This document shows, piece by piece, positions 456-12,282 of a DNA stretch of 32,000 bases. The stretch covers positions 1 to 32,000 of the forward strand of contig CAZECW010000114.1 in assembly GCA_964510585.1 (NCBI GenBank). The letters run 5' to 3'. The position numbers and the translations under genes are program-made. Below the pieces are notes generated by a model that was not told the origin of the DNA, did not search any database, and saw nothing but the letters and a program-made list of their open reading frames with translations. The DNA is from an uncultured archaeon (GTDB taxonomy: Archaea > Asgardarchaeota > Jordiarchaeia > Jordiarchaeales > Jordiarchaeaceae). Positions within the stretch are counted from its first letter, which is position 1. Every line of letters starts with the position of its first letter.

Positions 456-540
456 TCAACCACCACCAACACACAACAAACATCACAACAATAATTACGA
501 CAAACATATATAAAGGAATTTCTTTAAGAGAAAGTCTATA
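1..540 (-). mobile_element. IS630-family insertion sequence, one end plus the 5' part of its transposase; the rest lies outside the window
   Basis: Minus-strand transposase ORF, a TATA box (TTTATATA, 514-507), and an abrupt junction at a TA dinucleotide (about 537-540) exactly where the neighbouring dehydrogenase ORF stops. IS630 elements insert at TA. The exact end cannot be fixed without the other terminus. Confidence 0.8.
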
Positions 541-1084
541 TTGGCCTTTTACCTAGCCTCTCCATTAAATCCTTGGCAAATGTGACCACGTCCTTGGATG
601 TCTTTGGCCCGGGAACCACCTCAACTAGGGGGATTATGTGTGGCGGGGCAAACCAGTGGGTTATGATCAGTCTTTCGGGTTTTTTGATCTCTGCAATGCT
701 GAATATATCTAACCCTGAGGTGTTGCTGGCCAAAACGATGTCTTCCGAGCACAGTTCATCGAGTTGAGCGAATACCTTTTTCTTTACCTCGGCGACTTCG
801 GATACCACTTCAATTGCAAAGTCTGCTCCCTGAGCCCCGTCAGCTAGGCTGGTTGTGGGGTGAATGTGTTTAAGAATGGTGGAAATCTTGTTTCTGGGTA
901 CACGTTTAAACTCCGCCAGGATACCTAGATTGGACTTTATTAGGTTAGTGGCGCGTTCCAGAATCTTTTCATTTAAATCTACAAGGCTAACCTCAATTCC
1001 AGCTTGGGCAAAAACCTGTGCAATAGAGTGCCCCATTACACCGGCACCAACAACTAGAGCCTTCCTAATATTTTTCACATCCAT
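536..1084 (-). pseudogene. 3-hydroxyacyl-CoA dehydrogenase family protein, truncated after the NAD-binding domain by the IS630 insertion
   Basis: GAGVMG Rossmann motif, E-x-x-x-x-K, SNTSG and HWFAPPHIIPLVE are present. The ORF ends at LGKRPI*, where homologues (including the neighbour) continue into the C-terminal dimerisation domain. Likely start is ATG 1084 (MDVKNIRK). Confidence 0.8.
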
Positions 1085-1233
1085 AACACATCTTTCCCTG
1101 ACCAATCCATAAAAGGAGGGGAGCCTAGAAGCCCAGACAAATTCATTTATTTCCACTTTTCCATTTTAATGTTTTTAAAGAGGGGGAGAGGATGGATTTC
1201 ACTTCCTAACGCCTTCAAAGTAGCGTTGTAATA

Positions 1234-2145
1234 TTATTTCTTCTTGGGCTTGATAAACTCTGGAGATGTGAAGTCGAGAGGGCCCTTCCAGTCATAGAAG
1301 CCCTTGCCAGACTTCAATCCCAGCTCTCCCCTATCGATCATGTCTTTTAGAGCTTTTGGTGGTTTGTCGTCGGGGTTGCCGCTCTCATTATAGTAGGACA
1401 TTTCAATATCGTAGACCACATCCAGACCTACTGCGTCCATTAATGCGAATGGTCCCATGTTCATGCCTGTGAATATTCTCCATGCTCGGTCAACATCCCT
1501 GAAGTCTGCATATCCTCCAGCCCAGATTTTCAGGCACTCCTTTTTCACTGCCCGCCACACTCTATTGAACACAAAGCCCAGGCACTCCTTCTTAACCACT
1601 AGAGGAACACAGTCTATGCTTTCAATCCAAGCCTTACCCATCTCGAATGTTTCGTCACTAGTTTTGGTTCCCCTCATGATGTCCACCATGGGTCTCTGGT
1701 ATATGGGGGCGTAGAAGTGGATGTTCAGCACCTTATCTTTTCGCTTAACCGCACCCTCTATTTTTGAAACTGGAATTGAGGAACTATTAGTGGCAATGAT
1801 TGCGTGGGGTGGGGCTAACCTATCTATCTCTGCGAAAACTTTCTTCTTCAACTCTAAATCCTCGGGCACTGCCTCTATTATTAGGTCCGCATCTCTCACT
1901 GATTCAGCGAGTTTATCGTGATAAGTGATTTTCTCAAGAATTCCTTTCAGCTTTCCTTTGTCTTCCGGCGACATGAAGGTGAGTTCAACTGTCTGGGTCA
2001 CAAATTCCTTTGCAGCCTTGAGGGCCTCGGGGCTAACATCATAAATGCGTACAGCATAACCCTTGGTTGCAACCCAAGCAGAAATCTGTTTTCCCATCCA
2101 TCCAGCACCAATCATAGCAACTACTTTAATCTCCTTACTCAACAT
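1234..2145 (-). CDS. 3-hydroxyacyl-CoA dehydrogenase family protein (full length)
   Basis: GAGWMG, EAVPEDLELKK, TNSSS, GFVFNR, MGPF, D-x-VGLDV and G-x-LG-x-KSGKGFY motifs. Confidence 0.93.
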   Translation of the reverse strand: MLSKEIKVVAMIGAGWMGKQISAWVATKGYAVRIYDVSPEALKAAKEFVTQTVELTFMSPEDKGKLKGILEKITYHDKLAESVRDADLIIEAVPEDLELKKKVFAEIDRLAPPHAIIATNSSSIPVSKIEGAVKRKDKVLNIHFYAPIYQRPMVDIMRGTKTSDETFEMGKAWIESIDCVPLVVKKECLGFVFNRVWRAVKKECLKIWAGGYADFRDVDRAWRIFTGMNMGPFALMDAVGLDVVYDIEMSYYNESGNPDDKPPKALKDMIDRGELGLKSGKGFYDWKGPLDFTSPEFIKPKKK

Positions 2146-2565: not shown

Positions 2566-4311
2566 GTGGTGAAACTGGCCGCAACACTAACTACCCGTCC
2601 AGCGTCGATTTTGTCTAGGGATCGTGTTAGACATGAGGAGGCTAGAAGAACAAGCATTATGGTTGCGACCGTGATTTCCGAAATTCTGAAAACGATGCTG
2701 GGACCTAAGGGAATGAACAAAATGCTGGTGACCGCTACGGGGGATGTGGTGATTACAAGTGAGGGAAAGACAACATTGGAGAAATTAAATGTTACACACC
2801 CTATAGCTAGAATTCTCATAGATGTTGCGAAGACACAGTATACCATTGCTGGTGATGGAACGAAGACCGTAGTAATTCTTGCAGCTGAACTGCTCAAGGA
2901 AGCAGGTAAGTTGCTGGATCAAAATATTCATCCCACAGTTATAATTAGGGGATACGAAGAGGCTACTAGGAAGACTTTGGAGATTTTAGAACGCCTGTCG
3001 AAACCAGTGTCCATCGAAGACGATGAAGTATTGAAAAATGTTGCGCGAATGGTTATGGGAAGCAGAATATCTACAGATTTGCAGAACCGTCTTGCTGACA
3101 TAGTTGTTATTGCTGCTAAACGTGTTGCGGAGGAGAATTTGGGCAAAATAGTTGTAAATGTAGATAATGTTGACTTCACTAAAAAAGGCGGAGGAAGCCT
3201 GAACGATTTGGAACTAATAAATGGATTAATCGTATATAAAGGAAGACCTCATCCAAGAATGCCTTGTAAGGTTAAGAGTGCCAAAATTGCTCTGCTTAAC
3301 AGCTCACTTGAACCCTTCACACGAAAAGGCATGGATTGGAGGAAAGAGTATTTAATTAAGACACCGGAGCAACTGAAAGAATTCATTGATAAGGAGAAGG
3401 AAGTTAACAAGAGAATTGTGGAGAACGTTAAACGTGTTGGCGCACGGGTTTTATTCTGCCGTAAGCGTATTAGTGAATCGATAATCAGCTTCTTTGCCGA
3501 GGAGGGAATAATGGCTCTGGACATGACTGGAGAGAAAGATATGGCAAGATTGGAGAAGGCCACGGGGGCCAAAATCGTGTCAAACATAAACGAGTTAAAC
3601 GAAAAAGACCTAGGCGAAGCTGGTTTGGTGGAGTTTAGAAAAATCTCAGGTGACGAGATGCTTTTTATTGATCACTGCAAAAACCCGAAGGCAACCTCAA
3701 TCCTAATCCGAGGGGGAACAGAGCATGCAGTAGAGGAATTAGAGAGGATTATTAAAGCCAGCCTTAAAGCTGTGGCTGTTACAATTGAGTGCGGAAAAAT
3801 CATCGCGGGTGGCGGAGCCATAGAAATGGAGGTTGCTGGAAAGTTAAGAGACTTTTCAAGAATATTTAAGGGAAGGGAACAGCTGGCAATAGAAGCCTTT
3901 GCGTCTGCCATGGAAGCTATTCCGAAAACCCTCGCAACCAATGCTGGGCTAGAACCGATTAATGTTTTGGTGGAGTTAAGATCCAGACACGCTAAGGGTT
4001 ATACAAACCTGGGAGTCAACACGGTAAAAAGGGAAGTTGAAGATGTGGTGGAGAGAGGATTGGTGGAGGCGTACAAAGTCAAACAGCATGCATTTAAAGC
4101 CGCAAGCGAAACTGCCAACGCCATTTTAAGGATTGACGATTTTATCAACGTCACGAGACAAAAAGAAAGGGAAGAAGAGGAGAAAAGACTGGCAATGGAA
4201 CGAAAAAGAATCATGGATGAAAAGATTAGAAAATTATTGGAGAAAGAGGAGGAGTTGAAACAGATAGATAAGAGCCTGACGGAAAGAATGATGCATCCAG
4301 AAACCATATAA
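2566..4311 (+). CDS. ths: Group II chaperonin (thermosome) subunit, divergent paralog
   Basis: LGPKGMNKML, HPIA, GDGT, IRGGTEH, GGGA-x-E, EQLAI, IP-x-TLA-x-NAG and ILRIDD all match the TCP-1/thermosome fold. GAGGT RBS precedes the start (2566 or 2569). Confidence 0.95.
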   Translation: MVKLAATLTTRPASILSRDRVRHEEARRTSIMVATVISEILKTMLGPKGMNKMLVTATGDVVITSEGKTTLEKLNVTHPIARILIDVAKTQYTIAGDGTKTVVILAAELLKEAGKLLDQNIHPTVIIRGYEEATRKTLEILERLSKPVSIEDDEVLKNVARMVMGSRISTDLQNRLADIVVIAAKRVAEENLGKIVVNVDNVDFTKKGGGSLNDLELINGLIVYKGRPHPRMPCKVKSAKIALLNSSLEPFTRKGMDWRKEYLIKTPEQLKEFIDKEKEVNKRIVENVKRVGARVLFCRKRISESIISFFAEEGIMALDMTGEKDMARLEKATGAKIVSNINELNEKDLGEAGLVEFRKISGDEMLFIDHCKNPKATSILIRGGTEHAVEELERIIKASLKAVAVTIECGKIIAGGGAIEMEVAGKLRDFSRIFKGREQLAIEAFASAMEAIPKTLATNAGLEPINVLVELRSRHAKGYTNLGVNTVKREVEDVVERGLVEAYKVKQHAFKAASETANAILRIDDFINVTRQKEREEEEKRLAMERKRIMDEKIRKLLEKEEELKQIDKSLTERMMHPETI

Positions 4312-4544: not shown

Positions 4545-6095
4545 TTAGAATAGCTCGTCCATATTTACCCACTTGGGATAGTACTGATAATATTCTAGCG
4601 GGTGGGCTTTCTTAAGGCCGGCGTAGGTGGCATTCGCCAGTTTAATGACCCCTCTCCGGTCTCTGCTTAGGACCGCGAGCTTCTTTTCCTCAAGCTCCAT
4701 AAGAACTTCGTCGAGTTCTTCCTCTGTTCCCTTCAAATACATTAAAAGGTCTTCGCGAGACATGTACAACCCAGGGTTTACGCGGTAGTTCTCGGCAAGT
4801 ACCTGGAGTACGTTTTCCTCAGTTATTTTCATTTTTTCTGAGTCGGGAACCTTGTCGAAGTGGTCGATGGGAACCTTGAGTTCCGGATGAATAACTCTCC
4901 GTGGAGGCTTTATCTCATTTTCCATAAGCCTTGTGCCAAAACGGTAGAGAATCATACGCATAACTTCACTAGTCCCGGCGGCAATCTCAGTTACTTTAGA
5001 GGCTCTATATGCTGCTTCAACTGGATAAAAGCGTGTCCAACCGTCTCCACCCATTACTTGCATGGCGTTGGCTGAGGTCCACACGTAGGATTCAGATGTC
5101 ATAAGTTTTGCTGCTGTGGCTTCTATTACTGGTCCGTAGGGGCCCCCTCCTCCAATGTCTAGGAGGTGTGCCGCGTAGTAGACGAGTAGTCTGCAGGTTT
5201 TGAGGCGCATTATCATGTCCGCTATCTTGAACTGGTTGGTTTGGGCCAGCATTGTGGGCTGGTCGAATTGGACTCTTCTTTGTGAGTGGAAGTGAGCAAA
5301 TCTTATTGATTCCTTCATTTGGCCTAGTAGTTGGGATGAAGCTATGGTTCTCTCCACATTTAAGCCTGACATCATAATCGTCCAGCCGTCTCCTTCTCCA
5401 GCTAAGCGGTTTCCTACTGGTACCTTTACCTCGTCTAGGTTGAGATACCCGTTAAGTAATCCGTCTCCTCCACATAGTTCGTTTATCTTTTCCACCGTGA
5501 ATCCTTTCATACCTTTTTCGACAATGAATGCGGTTAGATGTCTGTTTGCCGCTCTGTCTTTGGGGTCTTGGCTGGTTCTAGCATATAACATGTATATATC
5601 TGCGATTCCCAGACCTGTGGTGAATCTTTTCTTACCATTGATTATATAATAATCTCCCTCCAGCTTAGCCTCTGTCGCCACCGCAGCTGCATCTGAACCT
5701 ACTGGTGGTTCGGTTATGCATATTGCGCCTATTTTTTCGCCGGTTGCCATTGCGGGTAACCATTTCTCACGCTGCTCATCGGTTCCAAAGGTTTCAATCT
5801 GGTGGACTCCCCCGAACTGGGATCCTCCATATATTGTTCCTACTACTCCCAGTCTTGATATTCCCTCGTTTATTATGCAGGCACCTGTTATTGCTAATTC
5901 CTCCCGCAGTCCCCCATACTTTTTGGGGATTAGTGCTCCGAACCATCCTTTTTCTTTTACGGCGTTTATAACTTTCCAGGGAGTTTGTTTCCTCCAAGCG
6001 GCTTCTTCGGCGTCTGGGTAGTATTGGTCTGCGAAGGCTTCTACCTCATCCGCAAGCTTCTTTTGAGTTTCGTTCCACCAAGGGAATTTGTCCAT
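4545..6095 (-). CDS. Acyl-CoA dehydrogenase (isovaleryl-CoA dehydrogenase-like active site) with a C-terminal extension of about 130 aa containing a winged-helix-like domain
   Basis: ITEP-x-x-GSD, NGKKRFTT, GF..G, LN-x-ER, RVQF, QFKIADM, MQVMGG-x-G and EIAAGTSEV motifs; the extra C-terminal region lies at about 4930-4548. Confidence 0.92.
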   Translation of the reverse strand: MDKFPWWNETQKKLADEVEAFADQYYPDAEEAAWRKQTPWKVINAVKEKGWFGALIPKKYGGLREELAITGACIINEGISRLGVVGTIYGGSQFGGVHQIETFGTDEQREKWLPAMATGEKIGAICITEPPVGSDAAAVATEAKLEGDYYIINGKKRFTTGLGIADIYMLYARTSQDPKDRAANRHLTAFIVEKGMKGFTVEKINELCGGDGLLNGYLNLDEVKVPVGNRLAGEGDGWTIMMSGLNVERTIASSQLLGQMKESIRFAHFHSQRRVQFDQPTMLAQTNQFKIADMIMRLKTCRLLVYYAAHLLDIGGGGPYGPVIEATAAKLMTSESYVWTSANAMQVMGGDGWTRFYPVEAAYRASKVTEIAAGTSEVMRMILYRFGTRLMENEIKPPRRVIHPELKVPIDHFDKVPDSEKMKITEENVLQVLAENYRVNPGLYMSREDLLMYLKGTEEELDEVLMELEEKKLAVLSRDRRGVIKLANATYAGLKKAHPLEYYQYYPKWVNMDELF

Positions 6096-6328
6096 AAATA
6101 TTTCCTCCAGAAAGGATTTAATTCAATTTTGATCATCAAACATATTAGTCTTCCTATAGATTAGGATAAAAAGAGGGATTTGTGGTGTTTCCTAGGGAGC
6201 GAATATTATTTTTAAATTATCTATATAAACGATTAGAGGGGATAGGAGATTTTATTTTTAGGGAGTTGGCATAATTCTTTTTATATTATAATGTGTATAA
6301 CAAGTTTAAGATCAGGAGGCTCAAATTT

Positions 6329-8029
6329 ATGGTTACTGTAAAGGGAAATAGGGCAATTGTAGATGCACTTGTAGAAAATGATGTGGAATATGTATTCGGG
6401 ATTTGCGGCACTTCCGTTGCTGGATTTTTATCTGCGCTGAGCACTGAGAATCGCATAAAATATGTGGTTGCACGTCATGAACGGTGCGCAGGTAGTATGG
6501 CTGATGGTTACGCTCGTGCCAGTGGAAGGGTCGGCGTTTGCCAGATGCATTCTGGCCCTGGAACGTTAAACGGTGTGCTTAGTATAGTCGACGCCTATAG
6601 GGATTCCTCCCCAGTCGTTCTACTCGCAGGCCAAGTGGAGAGGAAACTTATTGGACGTGAAATCTTCGGTGAGGCTAACCAGTTTGCGGTTCTTAAGCCT
6701 TATACCAAGTCCTGTCAACGCATTGGGCGTGTAAGTGACATTCCGAGGATTATCAATAATGCTTTTTACTTGGCGAGAGCGGGTAGACCGGGCCCGGTTA
6801 TGGTGGAGATGCCTGAGGACATATACAATGAGGAAGGTGAGGTGGAGCCAGACTTTAAAATTAGAGTTGATTCACAAATAGTTTCTCCCTCAATCATTGA
6901 GGAAGCAACGGATAGATTGATAGAAGCTGAAAAACCAGTCATTTTGGCTGGGGGAGGAGTAATATGGTCTAATGCTTCAGAGGAGCTTAAAACCATATCG
7001 GAAATGCTTCAGATACCTGTAACAACAACCCAGAATGGTAGAGGATGCTTCCCAGAGGATCACCCCTTGGCGTTGGGTGTAAGCGGCTGGTGTGGAGGAA
7101 TCAGTGTGGCTGACGACGCTCTGGAAGAGGCTGATGTCGTCCTTGCAGTGGGATGTACTATTTCTTCCCTGACCACCTACAACTTTACAACCCCAATAAA
7201 GGGGGATATCATCCAAATCAATATTGATCCAGCATCGATAGGTCAAAATTATCACTGTGACTATGGCATTGTGGGAGACGCGAAAACAGTGCTTTTGGAA
7301 ATGATAAAAATCCTCGATTCTAGGGGAGCGGTGAAAAAGTCATCCTCAAGGGCAGAAGAGATAAAAAAGAAGAAGGAGGAGTGGAACGCTATCTGGGGAG
7401 CAGATATAAATTCAGAAAGTGTGCCTGTGAAACCTCAGCGTTTACTTCGGGACGTACAAAAAACTATTCCCAAAAAGTCCATAATTGTCTCTGGAGCTGG
7501 GCTTCATCGCTTATTCATAACTGCTTATACAAAGACAATTTACCCCAGAACCTTCATTGGCTCGGTTAATCTGGGAGCTATGGGTTTCGCGTTCCCCGCT
7601 GCGATAGGTGCAAAGGCCGCTAAACCCGAAGAACCGGTGGTTTGTCTGGTGGGGGACGGAGACTTTATGATGACCATCATGGACTTAGAAACCGCTGTGA
7701 GATGTGGCTTCAACGTGGTAACAATTATTATGAATAACAACTGTTACGCTGCGCCCAAAATGTTTCAAAAGGTAAACTTCGGAACAGATTTTGGCAACGA
7801 TTACACTAACCCAGATTTTGCCAGAGTAGCCGAGAACTTCGGGGCATGTGGTTGGACTGTGGAGAAACCAGGCGAGATTGCCGATACTGTGAAAAGCGCA
7901 TTGGACTGTGGAAAACCAGCAGTAATAGACGTAAAAATAGACCCCGCAGCATTTCCGCCATTAAACCTAAAAGCAAGTTCAAGACTAAGGGGCATAGATG
8001 CAGAAAAGGCCACAAGAGGAGTACGCTGA
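6329..8029 (+). CDS. ThDP-dependent enzyme, acetolactate synthase large subunit superfamily (probably not a true AHAS)
   Basis: RHE catalytic Glu, SGPG, GRPGPV, GAMG and the GDG...NN ThDP-Mg motif. Start reassigned to ATG 6329, which follows an AGGAGG RBS. Confidence 0.9.
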   Translation: MVTVKGNRAIVDALVENDVEYVFGICGTSVAGFLSALSTENRIKYVVARHERCAGSMADGYARASGRVGVCQMHSGPGTLNGVLSIVDAYRDSSPVVLLAGQVERKLIGREIFGEANQFAVLKPYTKSCQRIGRVSDIPRIINNAFYLARAGRPGPVMVEMPEDIYNEEGEVEPDFKIRVDSQIVSPSIIEEATDRLIEAEKPVILAGGGVIWSNASEELKTISEMLQIPVTTTQNGRGCFPEDHPLALGVSGWCGGISVADDALEEADVVLAVGCTISSLTTYNFTTPIKGDIIQINIDPASIGQNYHCDYGIVGDAKTVLLEMIKILDSRGAVKKSSSRAEEIKKKKEEWNAIWGADINSESVPVKPQRLLRDVQKTIPKKSIIVSGAGLHRLFITAYTKTIYPRTFIGSVNLGAMGFAFPAAIGAKAAKPEEPVVCLVGDGDFMMTIMDLETAVRCGFNVVTIIMNNNCYAAPKMFQKVNFGTDFGNDYTNPDFARVAENFGACGWTVEKPGEIADTVKSALDCGKPAVIDVKIDPAAFPPLNLKASSRLRGIDAEKATRGVR

Positions 8030-8071
8030 TAACTCAATTTTACCTTAAAGGGATGAGAGGTGAGGCAGTTA

Positions 8072-9505
8072 ATGGATCAGAACGAGATTTTCAAAGTCCT
8101 TGCATCCATTGTGGGTGAAGAAGATGTTACAATAGATCCCGTTGAGCTTTTGGCCTATTCTTCGGACGCATCGCAATTAAAAGCAGTGCCAGTGGCGGTG
8201 GTGAGACCGGAAAACAAGGAGGAAGTTGCAGAAATCCTCAAATTTGCAGATGAAAACCGGATACCAGTTACTCCCAGAGGCGCGGGAACGAGTACTGCAG
8301 GGCAATCCCTTGCCTACAAAAATGGAATTCTAATGGACATGGTCAAAATGGACAAAATCTTGGAGATCAGCCTCAAAGATAGGATTGCGGTGGTTCAACC
8401 TGGAGTAATCTATGGAGAGCTAAACAAGGAACTTAGAAAGTATGGCTACTGCTTCCCCCCAGACCCAGGCTCAGCGATTGCCTGCACTGTGGGAGGAATG
8501 GTGGGAAACAACGCCAGCGGAGTGAGAGCATTAAAGTATGGAGCCACAGTAGACCATGTTCTCGGGTTGGAGGTTGTTCTGCCAGGAGGCAAAATCATTA
8601 GGACCGGGGGGCGGGTCTGGAAAAGCTCCTCGGGCTATAACCTGACTAGGCTTCTGGTGGGTTCTGAGGGAACCCTGGGAGTTTTCACCGAAATCATACT
8701 GAAGATAACGCCTATACCAAAGTACGTTGCGCTGATAGTTCCGGTTTTCGAAAAATTTGATCAAAGTTTGGAGGCAGCCACAGAAATCACAAATGCGGGA
8801 ATCATGCCCTCGGCAATGGAAATTCTGGACGACCTTTGCATCATGGTTATGAACTCCTTTCTGGAAGAAAAACTTCCCCAGGCCGAAGCGCTTTTATTCA
8901 TTGAGGTTGATGGAAACAACCAAAAGGCAATAATAGACGAATCAAATATAATTAAGAGTATTTGCGAGAAACTTGGAGCCCAGCAAGTAATACAATCCAC
9001 AGATCCTAAGAGGACAGAGGAACTCTGGAATCTAAGACATACTTTGGCAAACTTGCTTGCTAAAATAAGAGGGGAAAAAATGGCCATAAGCAGCATTATG
9101 GACTTCGCGGTGCCCATATCTCAGGTACCGGAAGCAGTAAGGGAAATAAAAGCTTTGGCAGCCAAGGAAAAAAGACTTATGGCAGCGTTGGGACATATTG
9201 GGGATGGAAATGTACATTTTGGTTCGGCAATTAATGTGGAGGATCCTAAGGAGAGGGAAGCTGCTACCAAGTTTTCGAGACAAGCAGCAGAAGCTATAAT
9301 AAAGAAATATGGGGGTACCTTAACAGCGGAACACGGCCTCGGACAGGCTAAATCTCATCTTGTAATGCTTGAGCACGGAGAAACAATTGAGCTTATGCGT
9401 GGAATTAAAAGAGTATTTGACCCTAACAACATAATGAACCCCATGGTGATGGGACTAACCGAAATCCCAGAGGACGAATACGTTTACATGCCAGGAGCAA
9501 AATAA
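8072..9505 (+). CDS. glcD: FAD-linked 2-hydroxy-acid oxidase/dehydrogenase subunit (GlcD/D-lactate dehydrogenase family), copy 1
   Basis: PRGAGTS, FPPDPGS, TVGGMVGNNASG, KYG, GSEGTLG, HIGDGNVH, AEHGLG and FDP-x-N-x-MNP. Start ATG 8072 follows GAGGTGA. Confidence 0.92.
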   Translation: MDQNEIFKVLASIVGEEDVTIDPVELLAYSSDASQLKAVPVAVVRPENKEEVAEILKFADENRIPVTPRGAGTSTAGQSLAYKNGILMDMVKMDKILEISLKDRIAVVQPGVIYGELNKELRKYGYCFPPDPGSAIACTVGGMVGNNASGVRALKYGATVDHVLGLEVVLPGGKIIRTGGRVWKSSSGYNLTRLLVGSEGTLGVFTEIILKITPIPKYVALIVPVFEKFDQSLEAATEITNAGIMPSAMEILDDLCIMVMNSFLEEKLPQAEALLFIEVDGNNQKAIIDESNIIKSICEKLGAQQVIQSTDPKRTEELWNLRHTLANLLAKIRGEKMAISSIMDFAVPISQVPEAVREIKALAAKEKRLMAALGHIGDGNVHFGSAINVEDPKEREAATKFSRQAAEAIIKKYGGTLTAEHGLGQAKSHLVMLEHGETIELMRGIKRVFDPNNIMNPMVMGLTEIPEDEYVYMPGAK

Positions 9506-10194
9506 TCTAGGGAAAGGAAGAGCCTAGGTGGGTTGGTTAATTCTATATCGAAAAATGTGGCTAGAGTTCAAAACGTTAGGTTTAATGCTTTGTTAGGAGT
9601 AAAGGATATAATCATAGTGAATCTTTGTAAAACAGACAATTTTTTGGGTGAATTATTGATGGATCAAAAGGAGATTTATGAAGCCCTTGCGGCGATTGTG
9701 GGTGAAGACGACGTGACCATAGATCCAGTTGAGCTGGTGGCCTATGCTTCGGATGCTTCGTTTCTGAGAGCCATACCAGTGGCGGTGGTGAGACCGGAAA
9801 GCAAGGAAGAAGTTGCAGAAATTCTCAAATTTGCAGATGAAAACCGGATACCAGTTACTCCCAGAGGTGCGGGAACGAGTTACGCGGGACAATCCTTAGC
9901 ATACAATAACGCAATTCTCATAGATTTCGTTAAAATGGATAAAATCTTGGAAATCAACCTGAAAGATAGAGTAGCAGTGGTTCAACCAGGAGTAATCTAC
10001 GGAGAGCTAAACAAGGAACTTAGAAAGTACGGCTACTGCTTCCCCCCAGACCCAGGCTCAGCGATTGCCTGCACTGTGGGAGGAATGGTGGGAAACAACG
10101 CCAGCGGAATTAGAGCGGTAAAGTATGGAGCCACAGTAGACCATGTTCTCGGGTTGGAGGTTGTTCTGCCAGGAGGCAAAATCATTAGGACCGG
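8444..10194 (+). repeat. Near-identical direct repeat between the FAD-binding halves of the two glcD genes (offset 1587 bp)
   Basis: By manual comparison, 8444-8521 is identical to 10031-10108 and 8532-8607 is identical to 10119-10194. Further high identity surrounds these tracts. Confidence 0.9.
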
Positions 10195-11098
10195 AGGGCG
10201 GGTCTGGAAAAGCTCCTCGGGCTATAACCTGACTAAGCTTCTGGTGGGTTCTGAGGGAAGCTTGGGAATATTCACAGAAATAATATTGAAGATAACACCT
10301 GCACCAAAGTATACCGCCATGATAGTGCCGGTTTTCGAAAAGTATGAGCAGGGGTTGGATGCGGCCACGGAAATTATTAATACGGGCATTCTGCCCTCAG
10401 CGATGGAGATTCTGGACGACGTATGTATAATGGTTCTGAATTCTGCCCTTAAGGAGCAGGACAGACTCCCGCCGGCTGGCGCAGTATTATTCATTGAAGT
10501 TGATGGAAGCAACCAAGAGGTTGTCAAGGAGGAGGCGGAGACAGTTAGAAAGGTTTGTGAAAAAATAGGTGTGAAGCAAATTATATACGCCACAGATCCT
10601 AAGAGAACAGAGGAGCTTTGGAAACTTAGACATTCCTTGGCAAACTTGTTAGCGAAACTGAGGGGAGAAAACATTGCGATAAACAGTATTCAAGACTTTG
10701 CGGTACCCATATCTCACGTGCCAGAGGCTATTAAGGAGGTTAAAGCGTTGGCTGCCAAGTATGGGAGACTTATGGTGGCCTTTGGACACATCGCCGATGG
10801 AAATGTTCACCTAGGTAGCGCCATAAATGTGGAGGATCCTGCGCAGAGAGAGATGGCTGTGAAGTTTGCAAGTGAAGCTGCAGACATTATTATCAAGAAG
10901 CATGGTGGAACTCTGTCGGCGGAGCATGGGACGGGTGTATCAAAGGCTGCGTTTATTGAGTTGGAGCACCGTGACACCCTTACCCTGATGCGGGGAATTA
11001 AGAAGGTTTTTGACCCACACAACATTCTGAACCCCATGGTTATGGGATTAACCGAAATACCAAAAGATGAATTTGTTTATATGGCTGGTGTGAAGTAA
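9659..11098 (+). CDS. glcD: FAD-linked 2-hydroxy-acid oxidase/dehydrogenase subunit (GlcD family), copy 2
   Basis: Same motifs (HIADGNVH, AEHGTG). Start reassigned to ATG 9659 by alignment with copy 1 (MDQ-x-EI) and an upstream GGTGA. Confidence 0.92.
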   Translation: MDQKEIYEALAAIVGEDDVTIDPVELVAYASDASFLRAIPVAVVRPESKEEVAEILKFADENRIPVTPRGAGTSYAGQSLAYNNAILIDFVKMDKILEINLKDRVAVVQPGVIYGELNKELRKYGYCFPPDPGSAIACTVGGMVGNNASGIRAVKYGATVDHVLGLEVVLPGGKIIRTGGRVWKSSSGYNLTKLLVGSEGSLGIFTEIILKITPAPKYTAMIVPVFEKYEQGLDAATEIINTGILPSAMEILDDVCIMVLNSALKEQDRLPPAGAVLFIEVDGSNQEVVKEEAETVRKVCEKIGVKQIIYATDPKRTEELWKLRHSLANLLAKLRGENIAINSIQDFAVPISHVPEAIKEVKALAAKYGRLMVAFGHIADGNVHLGSAINVEDPAQREMAVKFASEAADIIIKKHGGTLSAEHGTGVSKAAFIELEHRDTLTLMRGIKKVFDPHNILNPMVMGLTEIPKDEFVYMAGVK

Positions 11099-12282
11099 TG
11101 TCGACGGATGAAGAGAAAAGGAAAGCAATGGAAGATTGGGAAAAATTAAAGGCTGCGGAGAAGAAGACTCTGAATGATTTTCGAACACAGCTTGCTATGT
11201 GTAATATTTGTGCCTTTTGTAGAATTAGGTGTCCAGTTTACCAACAGGTTAAGTGGGAGTCGGTGACGCCGAGGGGAAAGATGCAACTACTCAGGAATGT
11301 GGTTAAGGGATGGATTAAGCCCACACCACAGGTTGCGGAGAGAATTTTCTCCTGCACAACCTGTCAGATTTGCAACCAGCAATGCGACGCAGAGGTTCGT
11401 CCATTTGACATTCTCAAAGTTGCGAGAAGAGAATTCACAGAACAGGGTCTGGGTCCTCTTCCAGAGGAGAAAAAAATGGACAGGAGAATAAAGGAGTATA
11501 AGAATCCCTACAAGGAGCCTCAGGAGAAACGTTTTAACTGGTTAGAGGTTAAGGTTCCAAAAACTGCGGATACTCTGCTCTATTTTGGCTGTGTTACAGC
11601 TTACCGATTTGGAGAAACGGGCAGGGCCATTGTGGAACTGCTCAGAAAGGCGGGATACCAATTCACAATAACTCCTGATGAGGGCTGCTGTGGTATGCAC
11701 CCCTACTGGGATGGGGAAATTAAACTCTCTGCAGAAATAGCCAGGGAAAACTTGGAAATATTCAGAAAAACTGGGGCGAAGCAGATAGTCACCGCCTGCG
11801 CTGGGTGCTATTCTACCTTTAAAAACGCCTATCCTATGCTCGTGGAAAATTTCGACTTTAAACTAATGCACTTCTCAGAGCTTCTACAGGAACTGATTAA
11901 GAAAGGCAAGCTCAAACTTAAGAAAAAATCTCCCATGAAGGTGACCTACCATGATCCCTGCCACTTGGGGAGACATGCTGGAATATACGATGCACCCCGA
12001 GAAGTAATCAAATCCATACCTGGATTGGAGCTGGTAGAGATGGAGCATAGTAGGGAAGATTCACAGTGTTGTGGTGGCGGGGGAGGATACTTTACTGCAT
12101 TTCCAGAAAACTCCGTGGAGATAGCTGAAAAACGTATAAGGGAAGCCGAGGAAACCGGAGCAGATGCAATAATTACAACCTGTCCCCTCTGTAGAACAAA
12201 TTTGGATCTGGCTATTAAGAGATTGGATTCTAAACTAAAACTTTATGATTTATCAGAGTTAGTGTTAGAGCACGTAGTCTAG
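11098..12282 (+). CDS. glcF: Fe-S oxidoreductase, GlcF/HdrD-like (4Fe-4S dicluster plus two CCG domains)
   Basis: CNICAFC..RCP, CTTCQIC..QC, GC, CCG, CAGC, YHDPCHLGR, CCGGGGG and TCPLC. The TAATG overlap with glcD copy 2 suggests translational coupling. Confidence 0.9.
   Translation: MSTDEEKRKAMEDWEKLKAAEKKTLNDFRTQLAMCNICAFCRIRCPVYQQVKWESVTPRGKMQLLRNVVKGWIKPTPQVAERIFSCTTCQICNQQCDAEVRPFDILKVARREFTEQGLGPLPEEKKMDRRIKEYKNPYKEPQEKRFNWLEVKVPKTADTLLYFGCVTAYRFGETGRAIVELLRKAGYQFTITPDEGCCGMHPYWDGEIKLSAEIARENLEIFRKTGAKQIVTACAGCYSTFKNAYPMLVENFDFKLMHFSELLQELIKKGKLKLKKKSPMKVTYHDPCHLGRHAGIYDAPREVIKSIPGLELVEMEHSREDSQCCGGGGGYFTAFPENSVEIAEKRIREAEETGADAIITTCPLCRTNLDLAIKRLDSKLKLYDLSELVLEHVV

What the first reader, a model, noticed from the sequence alone, without database searches (positions are those of the whole stretch)
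2750..3775. Thermosome paralog with a degenerate ATPase site
Seen: ITSEGKTTL replaces the canonical ITNDGATIL, GDGTKT replaces GDGTTT, and ERIIKASL replaces ER-x-x-x-DA, so the catalytic Asp (GroEL D398 equivalent) is Ala. GGGAIE replaces GGGAPE. Known: these residues bind and hydrolyse ATP in group II chaperonins. Eukaryotic CCT has low-ATP-affinity subunits, and BBS chaperonin-like proteins have degenerate motifs. Inference: a non-hydrolysing, specialised subunit of a hetero-oligomeric ring. If the host is Asgard, this bears on the origin of CCT subunit asymmetry.
Basis: partly seen in the sequence, partly recalled or inferred. Interest (0 to 1): 0.65.

Follow-up and report, generated by a model that had tools for sequence, protein, structure and literature searches.

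The report
Hydrolysis-dead Asgard thermosome paralog
An Asgard (Freyarchaeia) archaeon has two normal chaperonin genes plus a conserved, selected extra subunit that has lost the residues needed to split ATP and carries a long charged tail; it resembles the low-activity subunits of eukaryotic CCT but is not their ancestor.

Summary
Window 2566-4311 (+) encodes a full-length 581-aa group II chaperonin. The stem-loop Asn-Asp is Ser-Glu, the P-loop reads GDGTKT, and the catalytic Asp (M. maripaludis D386) is Ala. GGGAIE is not a deviation.

The host is an Asgard archaeon (Freyarchaeia/Jordarchaeales). Its assembly holds four chaperonin genes: two canonical and two with altered ATP sites.

The gene belongs to a well-supported clade. 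All members share Thr-to-Lys in the P-loop, and most share Lys-to-Arg in the nucleotide-sensing loop. All carry a conserved tail of about 50 aa that usually ends in H-P-E-T-hydrophobic.

Asp-to-Ala is recent, found only in orthologs at least 86% identical. Across the clade the two catalytic Asp were lost repeatedly (at least 7 and 5 state changes). Only 13 of 33 members keep both.

The gene is not decaying. dN/dS is 0.16-0.21, the ATP-site segments and tail are its most constrained parts, and canonical constraints persist.

Best reading: a non-hydrolysing accessory subunit, probably in mixed rings. Assembly is untested.

No paralog is specifically close to a CCT subunit, so the CCT link is analogy only. 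The scan had already noted this tail, the sister paralog and a clade member elsewhere.

The parts
2566..4311 (+). Gene for the 581-aa group II chaperonin paralog. It has a GTG start and TAA stop and stands alone between two minus-strand beta-oxidation genes.
   Evidence: Orthologs cover it from residue 1 to 581.
2698..2724 (+). LGPKGMNKM (res 45-53). G46, P47 and G49 are invariant in the clade. The canonical Asp51 is Asn.
2752..2778 (+). Stem-loop ITSEGKTTL (res 63-71). The canonical Asn65-Asp66 is Ser-Glu; Asp66 corresponds to M. maripaludis D60.
2851..2868 (+). P-loop GDGTKT (res 96-101). Asp97, Thr99 and Thr101 are kept. Lys100 replaces a Thr that is 100% conserved in canonical thermosomes, and is present in 32 of 32 clade members.
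   Evidence: The equivalent T97V mutant of the Thermoplasma alpha subunit has no ATPase (PMC5983026).
3043..3066 (+). Nucleotide-sensing-loop segment (res 160-167). Thr162 is Met and the gamma-phosphate Lys167 is Arg.
   Evidence: Group III chaperonins have Arg at the equivalent of the group II Lys (PMC5635000).
3298..3363 (+). Lid (helical protrusion) tip, res ~245-266. It has a 3-residue insertion and a clade-specific D-W-x-K-E-Y.
   Evidence: AF2 confidence is low at 252-260.
3742..3765 (+). ERIIKASL (res 393-400). Ala398 (nt 3757-3759) sits at the catalytic Asp (M. maripaludis D386, GroEL D398).
3808..3825 (+). GGGAIE (res 415-420). G415, G417, A418 and E420 are invariant in the clade. Ile419 is within normal variation.
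4063..4071 (+). V-E-A (res 500-502). The canonical Glu-Pro (99% conserved) has become Glu/Asp-Ala in the clade.
4150..4308 (+). C-terminal tail (res 529-581). It has a highly charged stretch (531-548), an amphipathic helix with a conserved hydrophobic seam (549-576), and a terminal H-P-E-T-I.
   Evidence: It is predicted helical, pLDDT about 58-74. dN/dS is 0.06-0.16.

Best explanation
This is a functional, fast-evolving accessory subunit of the group II chaperonin (thermosome) of a Freyarchaeia archaeon.

Shown:
- It keeps the full three-domain fold with the built-in lid.
- It keeps the glycine-rich nucleotide-pocket motifs: LGPxG, GDG and GGGA.
- It has lost all three side chains that position and activate the hydrolytic water at the gamma-phosphate. 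The stem-loop Asn-Asp is Ser-Glu, and the intermediate-domain Asp is Ala.

Inferred:
- It cannot hydrolyse ATP. It may still bind nucleotide.
- Its clade was already altered at the ATP site when it arose. The middle Thr of the P-loop is Lys and the sensing-loop Lys is Arg.
- Hydrolysis by this subunit was therefore dispensable, and the catalytic Asp were lost many times independently.
- The most likely setting is a minority position in mixed rings with the two canonical subunits, which supply the ATP-driven closure.
- This subunit would contribute an altered lid tip and apical surface. It would also contribute a conserved helical tail of about 50 residues. The tail starts at the cavity floor and ends in a conserved H-P-E-T-hydrophobic peptide. 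It is a candidate tether or docking element for a client or partner.
For: Family and fold:
- establish the family.
- The AF2 model has pLDDT 84 and superposes on closed thermosome subunits at TM 0.88-0.92.

Catalytic residues:
- They are replaced at positions 100% conserved in 78 canonical thermosomes.
- D386A M. maripaludis chaperonin binds ATP but does not hydrolyse it (PMC5019054).

Clade:
- The clade is well supported (SH-aLRT 99, stem 0.49).
- Its markers are invariant or nearly so: K100 in 32/32 and R167 in 27/33.
- D398 is kept in 17/33 with at least 7 state changes. D66 is kept in 17/33 with at least 5. Both are kept in 13/33.

Selection:
- dN/dS is 0.16-0.21 overall. It is 0.08-0.14 in the N-terminal equatorial part, 0-0.10 in res 376-412 and 0.06-0.16 in the tail.
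- Against the Asp-retaining sister lineage, the only fixed changes at positions at least 95% conserved in canonical thermosomes are N30S, N65S, D66E, K82R and D398A.
- The gradient of constraint is the same in both lineages.

Precedent:
- Mixed rings tolerate one dead subunit type in Thermoplasma D94A-alpha and D93K-beta (PMC5983026).
- They also tolerate it in Chaetomium CCT HYD1-8 (PMC5413064).

Genomic setting:
- Two canonical paralogs coexist in every genome that has this gene.
Against: - No assay, no expression data and no assembly data exist. The tools for reads and contigs were unavailable.
- Hetero-oligomerisation is purely inferential.
- In Thermoplasma, changing the same P-loop Thr (T97V-alpha, T96V-beta) blocked incorporation into alpha8-beta8. 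A Lys there could equally keep this subunit out of canonical rings.
- Pocket positions 51, 162 and 502 vary among orthologs 86-91% identical. This hints that nucleotide binding may also be gone in this sublineage.
- Eight 50-residue tails would crowd a cavity. That argues against homo-oligomers but does not prove mixed rings.
- dN/dS is 4-8 times that of the canonical paralogs.
Confidence: 0.5

Rival explanations
1. It forms its own homo-oligomeric complex. This would be a nucleotide-independent or nucleotide-locked holdase or scaffold, with the tails bundling in the cavity, separate from the housekeeping thermosome.
For: - Clade-specific changes cluster at positions otherwise at least 95% conserved in the apical domain: QKGIDD...RRVKKS has become RKRISE...DMTGEK.
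- The lid tip is changed as well.
- Changing the equivalent P-loop Thr disrupts hetero-assembly in Thermoplasma.
- The tail has a conserved hydrophobic seam suited to helix-helix packing.
Against: - In a homo-oligomer, loss of hydrolysis stops the whole cycle; D386A locks the open state. Yet the catalytic Asp were lost at least 7 times while 13/33 members keep both. Such tolerance is easier to explain in mixed rings.
- The N-terminal strand (P-x-x-I-L-S-K/R) and the stem-loop that build the ring contacts remain thermosome-like.
Confidence: 0.2
2. It is not a ring subunit. It would be a monomeric or small-oligomer cofactor, comparable to BBS6/10/12, that docks on the thermosome or on a client through its tail and terminal H-P-E-T peptide.
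For: - The C-terminal short motif after a long helix is conserved.
- The ATP cycle appears dispensable.
- The protein evolves fast compared with its flanking genes: 86-91% against 95-99% identity.
Against: - The equatorial domain builds the ring. It is the most constrained part, with dN/dS 0.08-0.14 for the N-terminal equatorial part.
- All pocket glycine motifs are invariant across a clade that reaches down to 42% identity. In BBS proteins (my own recollection, not checked) these motifs are degenerate.
Confidence: 0.12
3. It still hydrolyses ATP with substitute groups: Glu66 instead of Asp, and Lys100 as a new phosphate or transition-state ligand.
For: - D66E is conservative.
- Asp97, Thr99 and Thr101 of the P-loop are kept, and Arg167 can replace the sensing Lys, as group III chaperonins show.
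- The pocket segments are under strong purifying selection.
Against: - Ala398 has no nearby acidic substitute; residues 397-399 are K-A-S.
- The Ala mutant at this position is hydrolysis-dead in M. maripaludis.
- N65, D66 and D398 changed together on one branch.
- T97V at the Lys position abolishes ATPase in Thermoplasma alpha16.
Confidence: 0.1
4. It is a decaying gene copy on its way to becoming a pseudogene.
For: - dN/dS is 4-8 times that of the canonical paralogs.
- Catalytic residues are lost.
Against: - The frame is open in all orthologs from 99% to 42% identity, at a constant length of about 575-596 aa.
- dN/dS is 0.16-0.21, far below 1.
- Constraint follows the canonical profile.
- The tail is conserved.
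Confidence: 0.02

Closest known systems
Hetero-oligomeric archaeal thermosomes (Thermoplasma acidophilum alpha/beta, PDB 1A6D; Sulfolobus alpha/beta/gamma, PDB 4XCD/4XCG)
   Same: - Same family and fold: 42-45% identity, TM 0.89-0.92.
- Several paralogous subunits in one genome.
   Different: - All described subunits keep GDGTTT and both catalytic Asp (78 of 78 canonical sequences).
- This one has GDGTKT, Ser-Glu and Ala, an Arg in the sensing loop, and a helical tail of about 50 aa in place of a short flexible end.
Engineered hydrolysis-dead subunits: M. maripaludis D386A (PDB 5W74, 3J02, 3IZH), Thermoplasma D94A-alpha/D93K-beta, Chaetomium CCT HYD1-8
   Same: - The same catalytic Asp is replaced by Ala (aligned to 5w74).
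- Mixed rings with one dead subunit type still assemble and fold.
   Different: - Those are laboratory mutants.
- Here the state is natural, fixed in a lineage, accompanied by loss of the stem-loop Asn-Asp, and maintained by selection.
Low-activity subunits of eukaryotic CCT/TRiC (e.g. CCT8, CCT6)
   Same: - The functional idea is shared: a ring in which some paralogous subunits contribute little or no hydrolysis. A dead CCT8 leaves complex ATPase unchanged or higher (PMC5413064).
   Different: - There is no specific relatedness. The best CCT model score is 358 bits against cut-offs of 456-800, while thermosome models score 577-585.
- CCT subunits share high similarity in the P-loop and catalytic site (PMC5413064), whereas here the catalytic residues are replaced.
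BBS6/MKKS, BBS10, BBS12 chaperonin-like proteins
   Same: - They are divergent group II paralogs with impaired ATP sites and specialised roles (PMC2846930 is listed; the details are my own knowledge).
   Different: - They are eukaryotic, much more divergent, and not regular ring subunits.
- This protein keeps all pocket glycine motifs and the ring-building equatorial domain.
- No direct sequence comparison was possible.
Group III (bacterial thermosome-like) chaperonin of Carboxydothermus hydrogenoformans
   Same: - Arg takes the place of the group II gamma-phosphate-sensing Lys (PMC5635000).
   Different: - Group III lacks the extended sensing loop and keeps GDGTTT and the catalytic Asp.
- This protein is a clear group II member.

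Membership tests
Group II chaperonin (archaeal thermosome) | Full-length Cpn60_TCP1 domain | tested here: met
   PF00118 scores 517 bits (cut-off 34.3), covering residues 37-528 against profile positions 1-487 of 490.
Group II chaperonin (archaeal thermosome) | Scores above curated thermosome model cut-offs | tested here: inconclusive
   NF041083 scores 585 against a cut-off of 400, and NF041082 scores 577 against 450; both are met. TIGR02339 scores 570 against 671 and is not met. The canonical paralogs of the same genome score 793-844.
Group II chaperonin (archaeal thermosome) | Three-domain fold with built-in lid (helical protrusion) and no GroES-type partner | tested here: met
   The AF2 model (pLDDT 84) superposes on closed M. 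maripaludis, Thermococcus KS-1 and Thermoplasma subunits at TMt 0.88-0.92. The lid segment aligns with a 3-residue insertion. Its tip has low model confidence.
Group II chaperonin (archaeal thermosome) | ATP-hydrolysis residues: stem-loop Asn-Asp, P-loop GDGTTT, sensing-loop Lys and intermediate-domain Asp | tested here: not met
   The changes are N65S, D66E, T100K, K167R and D398A. Each canonical residue is 99-100% conserved in 78 canonical thermosomes.
Group II chaperonin (archaeal thermosome) | Assembly into double rings of 8 or 9 subunits | not testable with these tools
   Only single-chain prediction was available. Sequence shows that the N-terminal strand and stem-loop are retained.
Eukaryotic CCT subunit orthologue (CCT1-8) | Reaches the equivalog cut-off of one CCT subunit model, or branches with it in a tree | tested here: not met
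   The best score is CCT-gamma at 358 bits against a cut-off of 553. All eight models fall below cut-off, and no subunit is preferred. The same holds for the other six chaperonin units of the genus. A tree with CCT1-8 could not be built because no eukaryotic sequence was available by reference.
BBS6/10/12-type chaperonin-like proteins | Degenerate nucleotide motifs and specific insertions; not a ring subunit | not tested
   No BBS sequences were available by reference. The pocket glycine motifs are intact and invariant here, which argues against close likeness.

The most novel reading that the evidence does not exclude
The clade would be a new class of adaptor subunit for thermosomes.

- The invariant P-loop Lys, together with the sensing-loop Arg, clamps a nucleotide as a permanent structural ligand, or replaces the monovalent cation the site normally needs. 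The subunit is then frozen in one nucleotide state and sets a fixed asymmetry point in the ring.
- The conserved helical tail reaches from the cavity floor and presents its terminal H-P-E-T-hydrophobic peptide. This would recruit a specific client or partner, much as the EEVD tails of Hsp70 and Hsp90 recruit TPR proteins.

If so, built-in ATPase asymmetry plus a client-recruiting element evolved in Asgard archaea independently of CCT.
Probability: 0.15. Interest if true: 0.8.

Novelty: new variant of a known kind. Interest (0 to 1): 0.55.

Why it matters
Group II chaperonins are thought to need ATP hydrolysis for lid closure. Natural archaeal subunits are described as catalytically equivalent.

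This case differs. A conserved Asgard clade has an altered ATP site from its origin. It has lost the catalytic Asp again and again while staying under selection.

That shows subunit specialisation into driving and non-driving members, the hallmark of eukaryotic CCT, can arise in archaea. It also offers a simpler natural system of three to seven paralogs in which to test how rings tolerate and use dead subunits.

The conserved tail with its terminal peptide is a concrete handle for finding a partner.

The finding does not bear on the ancestry of CCT subunits.

Tried and rejected
- **Genome-collection scan with the clade alignment.** It was swamped by canonical thermosomes, and none of the 80 loci has the tail. 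I used them only as a background set of 78 canonical sequences.
- **Organism names for distant clade members P0020-P0032.** No names are on record. Their taxonomy stays unknown.
- **Phylum scan of 400 Asgard genomes.** Tail-bearing orthologs appear only in two families of one order.
- **The look-up of sequencing runs.** There is therefore no expression test and read laying was not used.
- **ESM Atlas.** It returned only generic thermosome clusters.
- **Tree with CCT1-8 and BBS proteins.** Not possible. The 150 nearest cluster representatives score above the level of CCT matches. All ten that I classified are archaeal thermosome type. Model scores served as a proxy.
- **Mapping Thr162 to the ribose-contacting Thr157-alpha/158-beta of Thermoplasma.** I could not verify the residue correspondence, so I do not rely on it.
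- **Conserved gene neighbourhood.** None beyond the closest species. The neighbours are beta-oxidation and other metabolic genes.
- **Bacterial-type promoter and terminator scan.** At chance level, and not applicable to archaea.
- **Literature searches.** I found no description of this clade or of natural hydrolysis-dead thermosome subunits. The library is incomplete.
- **Pseudogene reading.** Rejected.
Full report
**1. The observation**

Window 2566-4311 (+) is one open frame of 581 codons. It stands between two minus-strand genes for 3-hydroxyacyl-CoA dehydrogenase and acyl-CoA dehydrogenase.

It matches Pfam Cpn60_TCP1 over its whole length (517 bits). It scores 585 and 577 bits against the NCBIfam thermosome beta and alpha models, above their cut-offs. 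It falls below the stricter TIGR02339 cut-off and far below all eight CCT subunit cut-offs.

HMMER alignments to solved group II chaperonins are ungapped through the motifs in question:
- ITSEGKTTL lies on ITNDGATIL.
- GDGTKT lies on GDGTTT.
- E-R-I-I-K-A-S lies on E-R-A-I-D-D-A.

Ala398 therefore occupies the catalytic Asp. It aligns with the engineered Ala of the D386A Methanococcus maripaludis chain 5w74.

Against 78 canonical thermosomes from across the Archaea, N65, D66, T100 and D398 are each 100% conserved.

- D51N.
- T162M.
- K167R, the gamma-phosphate-sensing Lys.
- P502A.

**2. Host and paralog family**

Close homologs carry source names of Candidatus Freyarchaeota, Freyarchaeum deiterrae and Jordarchaeales. 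The host is therefore an Asgard archaeon.

The window's genome assembly (3.78 Mb, 96% complete) has four chaperonin genes:
- Two are canonical: contigs C161 and C170, with GDGTTT and both Asp, scoring 842-844 bits to thermosome models.
- One is this gene.
- One is a second divergent paralog on contig C60, with GDGGKI and Asp-to-Asn.

Congeners hold seven chaperonin units. These include a 1,066-1,081-aa natural fusion of two units. The scan has already followed that up elsewhere.

**3. The clade**

Homologs from 99% down to 42% identity cover the query end to end and have 571-596 residues (two shorter entries are about 550 aa, probably truncated or mis-started gene calls). They form a clade with SH-aLRT 99 and a long stem.

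Clade-wide features:
- Lys at the fifth P-loop position, in 32 of 32 members.
- Arg for the sensing-loop Lys, in 27 of 33.
- Glu/Asp-Ala for Glu-Pro at 501-502.
- A charge-swapped pair of apical segments: QKGIDD...RRVKKS has become RKRISE...DMTGEK.
- A lid tip with a small insertion.
- A C-terminal tail of about 50 residues.

The pocket glycine motifs are invariant: G46, P47, G49, G96, D97, G98, G415, G417 and A418.

In a sample of 400 Asgard genomes, tail-bearing orthologs occur only in two families of one order. The organisms behind the more distant members could not be named.

**4. The catalytic residues are lost repeatedly**

Asp-to-Ala is not a clade feature. Only the window's protein and orthologs at least 86% identical have Ala398, together with Ser65 and Glu66. 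The next lineage (68-75% identity, including the complete F. deiterrae genome) keeps Asn-Asp and Asp.

Over 33 clade members:
- D398 is retained in 17, with at least 7 changes of state on the tree. The replacements are A, G, H, N, E, S and K.
- D66 is retained in 17, with at least 5 changes.
- Both Asp are retained in only 13.

So hydrolysis by this subunit has been dispensable since the clade arose.

The equivalent of Lys100 is Thr97 of the Thermoplasma alpha subunit. That residue is listed as an ATP-binding residue. Mutated to Val, it gives no detectable ATPase (PMC5983026). The ATP site may therefore have been compromised from the start.

**5. Selection**

Between the same genome pairs:

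| Gene | dN/dS |
|---|---|
| This gene | 0.16-0.21 |
| Canonical paralogs | 0.02-0.06 |
| C60-type paralog | 0.05-0.09 |

The protein is 86-91% identical among species whose flanking genes are 95-99% identical. It evolves fast but is clearly under purifying selection.

Constraint is uneven among the close orthologs:

| Region | dN/dS |
|---|---|
| N-terminal equatorial part with LGPKG, stem-loop and P-loop | 0.08-0.14 |
| Residues 376-412, holding ERIIKAS | 0-0.10 |
| Tail | 0.06-0.16 |
| First intermediate segment, 151-220 | 0.3-0.7 |

I compared the Ala lineage with its Asp-retaining sister lineage at positions at least 95% conserved in canonical thermosomes. Only five changes are fixed in the Ala lineage while the sister lineage keeps the canonical residue: N30S, N65S, D66E, K82R and D398A.

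The share of variable sites rises with falling canonical conservation in the same way in both lineages: 0.08 to 0.36 against 0.14 to 0.34. The catalytic residues were therefore removed specifically, on one long branch (0.23), without general decay.

A caveat: pocket positions 51, 162 and 502 vary among the close orthologs. Nucleotide binding itself may be relaxed in this sublineage.

**6. Structure and tail**

The AF2 model (pLDDT 84, pTM 0.77) has the standard three domains. It superposes on closed thermosome subunits with TM 0.88-0.92.

After the last equatorial helix the chain continues as a helix to residue 576, at moderate confidence. The tail alignment shows:
- a very charged stretch (531-548, with E545 invariant);
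- an amphipathic stretch with conserved hydrophobic positions 549, 554, 557/558, 564, 567, 571 and 575;
- a terminal H-P-E-T-hydrophobic in most members.

Chaperonin C-termini lie at the cavity floor (established structural knowledge). The tail would therefore project into the chamber or the inter-ring region.

**7. Mechanism**

Shown: the side chains that handle the gamma-phosphate and the attacking water are absent.

From the literature:
- The Ala mutant at this Asp binds ATP but does not hydrolyse it, and locks the open state (PMC5019054).
- Mixed thermosome or CCT rings with one dead subunit type still assemble, cycle and fold (PMC5983026; PMC5413064).

Inferred: the protein is a non-hydrolysing accessory subunit. 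Repeated loss of catalysis under continued selection is most easily tolerated in mixed rings, where the two canonical subunits supply the power stroke. Its specific contribution would be the changed lid and apical surface and the tail.

Against this, changing the same P-loop Thr in Thermoplasma prevented hetero-assembly, and nothing here tests assembly. The main rivals are a separate homo-oligomer and a non-ring cofactor. Residual ATPase through Glu66 and Lys100 is unlikely. A pseudogene is excluded.

**8. Relation to CCT**

This protein scores 577-585 bits on thermosome models and at most 358 on any CCT model. The other divergent units of the genus score 506-583 bits on those models against at most 404 on any CCT model, with no preferred subunit. 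The canonical paralogs are nearer to CCT (up to 537 bits) than the divergent ones.

The divergent paralogs are therefore lineage-specific offshoots. The resemblance to CCT's unequal subunits is a parallel, not ancestry. A proper tree with CCT and BBS sequences could not be built here.

**9. Novelty**

Reviews give one to five thermosome subunits per archaeon, all assumed to form hexadecamers (PMC5220055). My searches found no report of natural hydrolysis-dead thermosome subunits or of this clade.

About 30 of the roughly 135 nearest full-length cluster representatives also carry Lys at the same P-loop position, and many lack the catalytic Asp. Such paralogs are therefore widespread in metagenomes but undescribed.

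The scan itself had already noted four related items:
- this tail;
- the C60 paralog;
- a GDGTKT-plus-tail protein in another genome;
- the fused chaperonin.

I rate this a new variant of a known kind, of moderate interest.

Noticed in passing
Own genome, contig C60 (L004:1357-3000, +): A second divergent chaperonin paralog of 547 aa. It has GDGGKI in the P-loop and Asp-to-Asn at the catalytic position (ERLLRNAM). It is under strong purifying selection (dN/dS 0.05-0.09) and lies convergent with, and immediately upstream of the 3' end of, a large minus-strand ORF (L004:3056-4411, 451 aa) that I did not annotate, in both G000 and G005.
   Followed up: partly
L035:7522-10767 (+) in congener G005; also L044, L045, L046: A natural 1,066-1,081-aa fusion of two different group II chaperonin units (GDGTKT with Asp; GDGTKA with Asn). 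A further 569-aa paralog (L035:3340-5049, -) lies nearby. Further long ORFs lie between and after them (not annotated here; an earlier scan note, calls the cluster a corrinoid methyl-transfer cluster). The cluster is absent from the window's assembly. The scan has already followed it up on other genomes.
   Followed up: partly
Congener genomes G001-G005: The genus holds seven chaperonin units in six genes. This exceeds the maximum of five subunits quoted for archaea in PMC5220055.
   Followed up: partly
Cluster representatives P0122-P0268: About 30 of the roughly 135 nearest full-length 50%-identity representatives have Lys at the fifth P-loop position (GDGxK). Many lack the catalytic Asp (N, K, S, A, G or T instead). 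Thermosome paralogs with altered ATP sites look common in metagenomes.
   Followed up: no
window 3460-3477 and 3520-3537 (res 299-304 and 319-324): A clade-specific charge swap at positions at least 92% conserved in canonical thermosomes. QKGIDD has become RKRISE, and RRVKKS has become DMTGEK. This suggests a rearranged salt-bridge network in the apical domain.
   Followed up: no
window 4545-6095 (-): The acyl-CoA dehydrogenase has a C-terminal extension of about 130 residues (386-516) with no Pfam match.
   Followed up: no
window 536-2145 (-): Two adjacent 3-hydroxyacyl-CoA dehydrogenase genes lie here. The first ORF (536-1156) carries only the NAD-binding domain.
   Followed up: no
window 6293-12282 (+): A co-directional block: a TPP-dependent enzyme, two GlcD-like FAD oxidases, and a CCG/4Fe-4S GlcF-like subunit. 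It looks like a glycolate/lactate-oxidase-type cluster.
   Followed up: no
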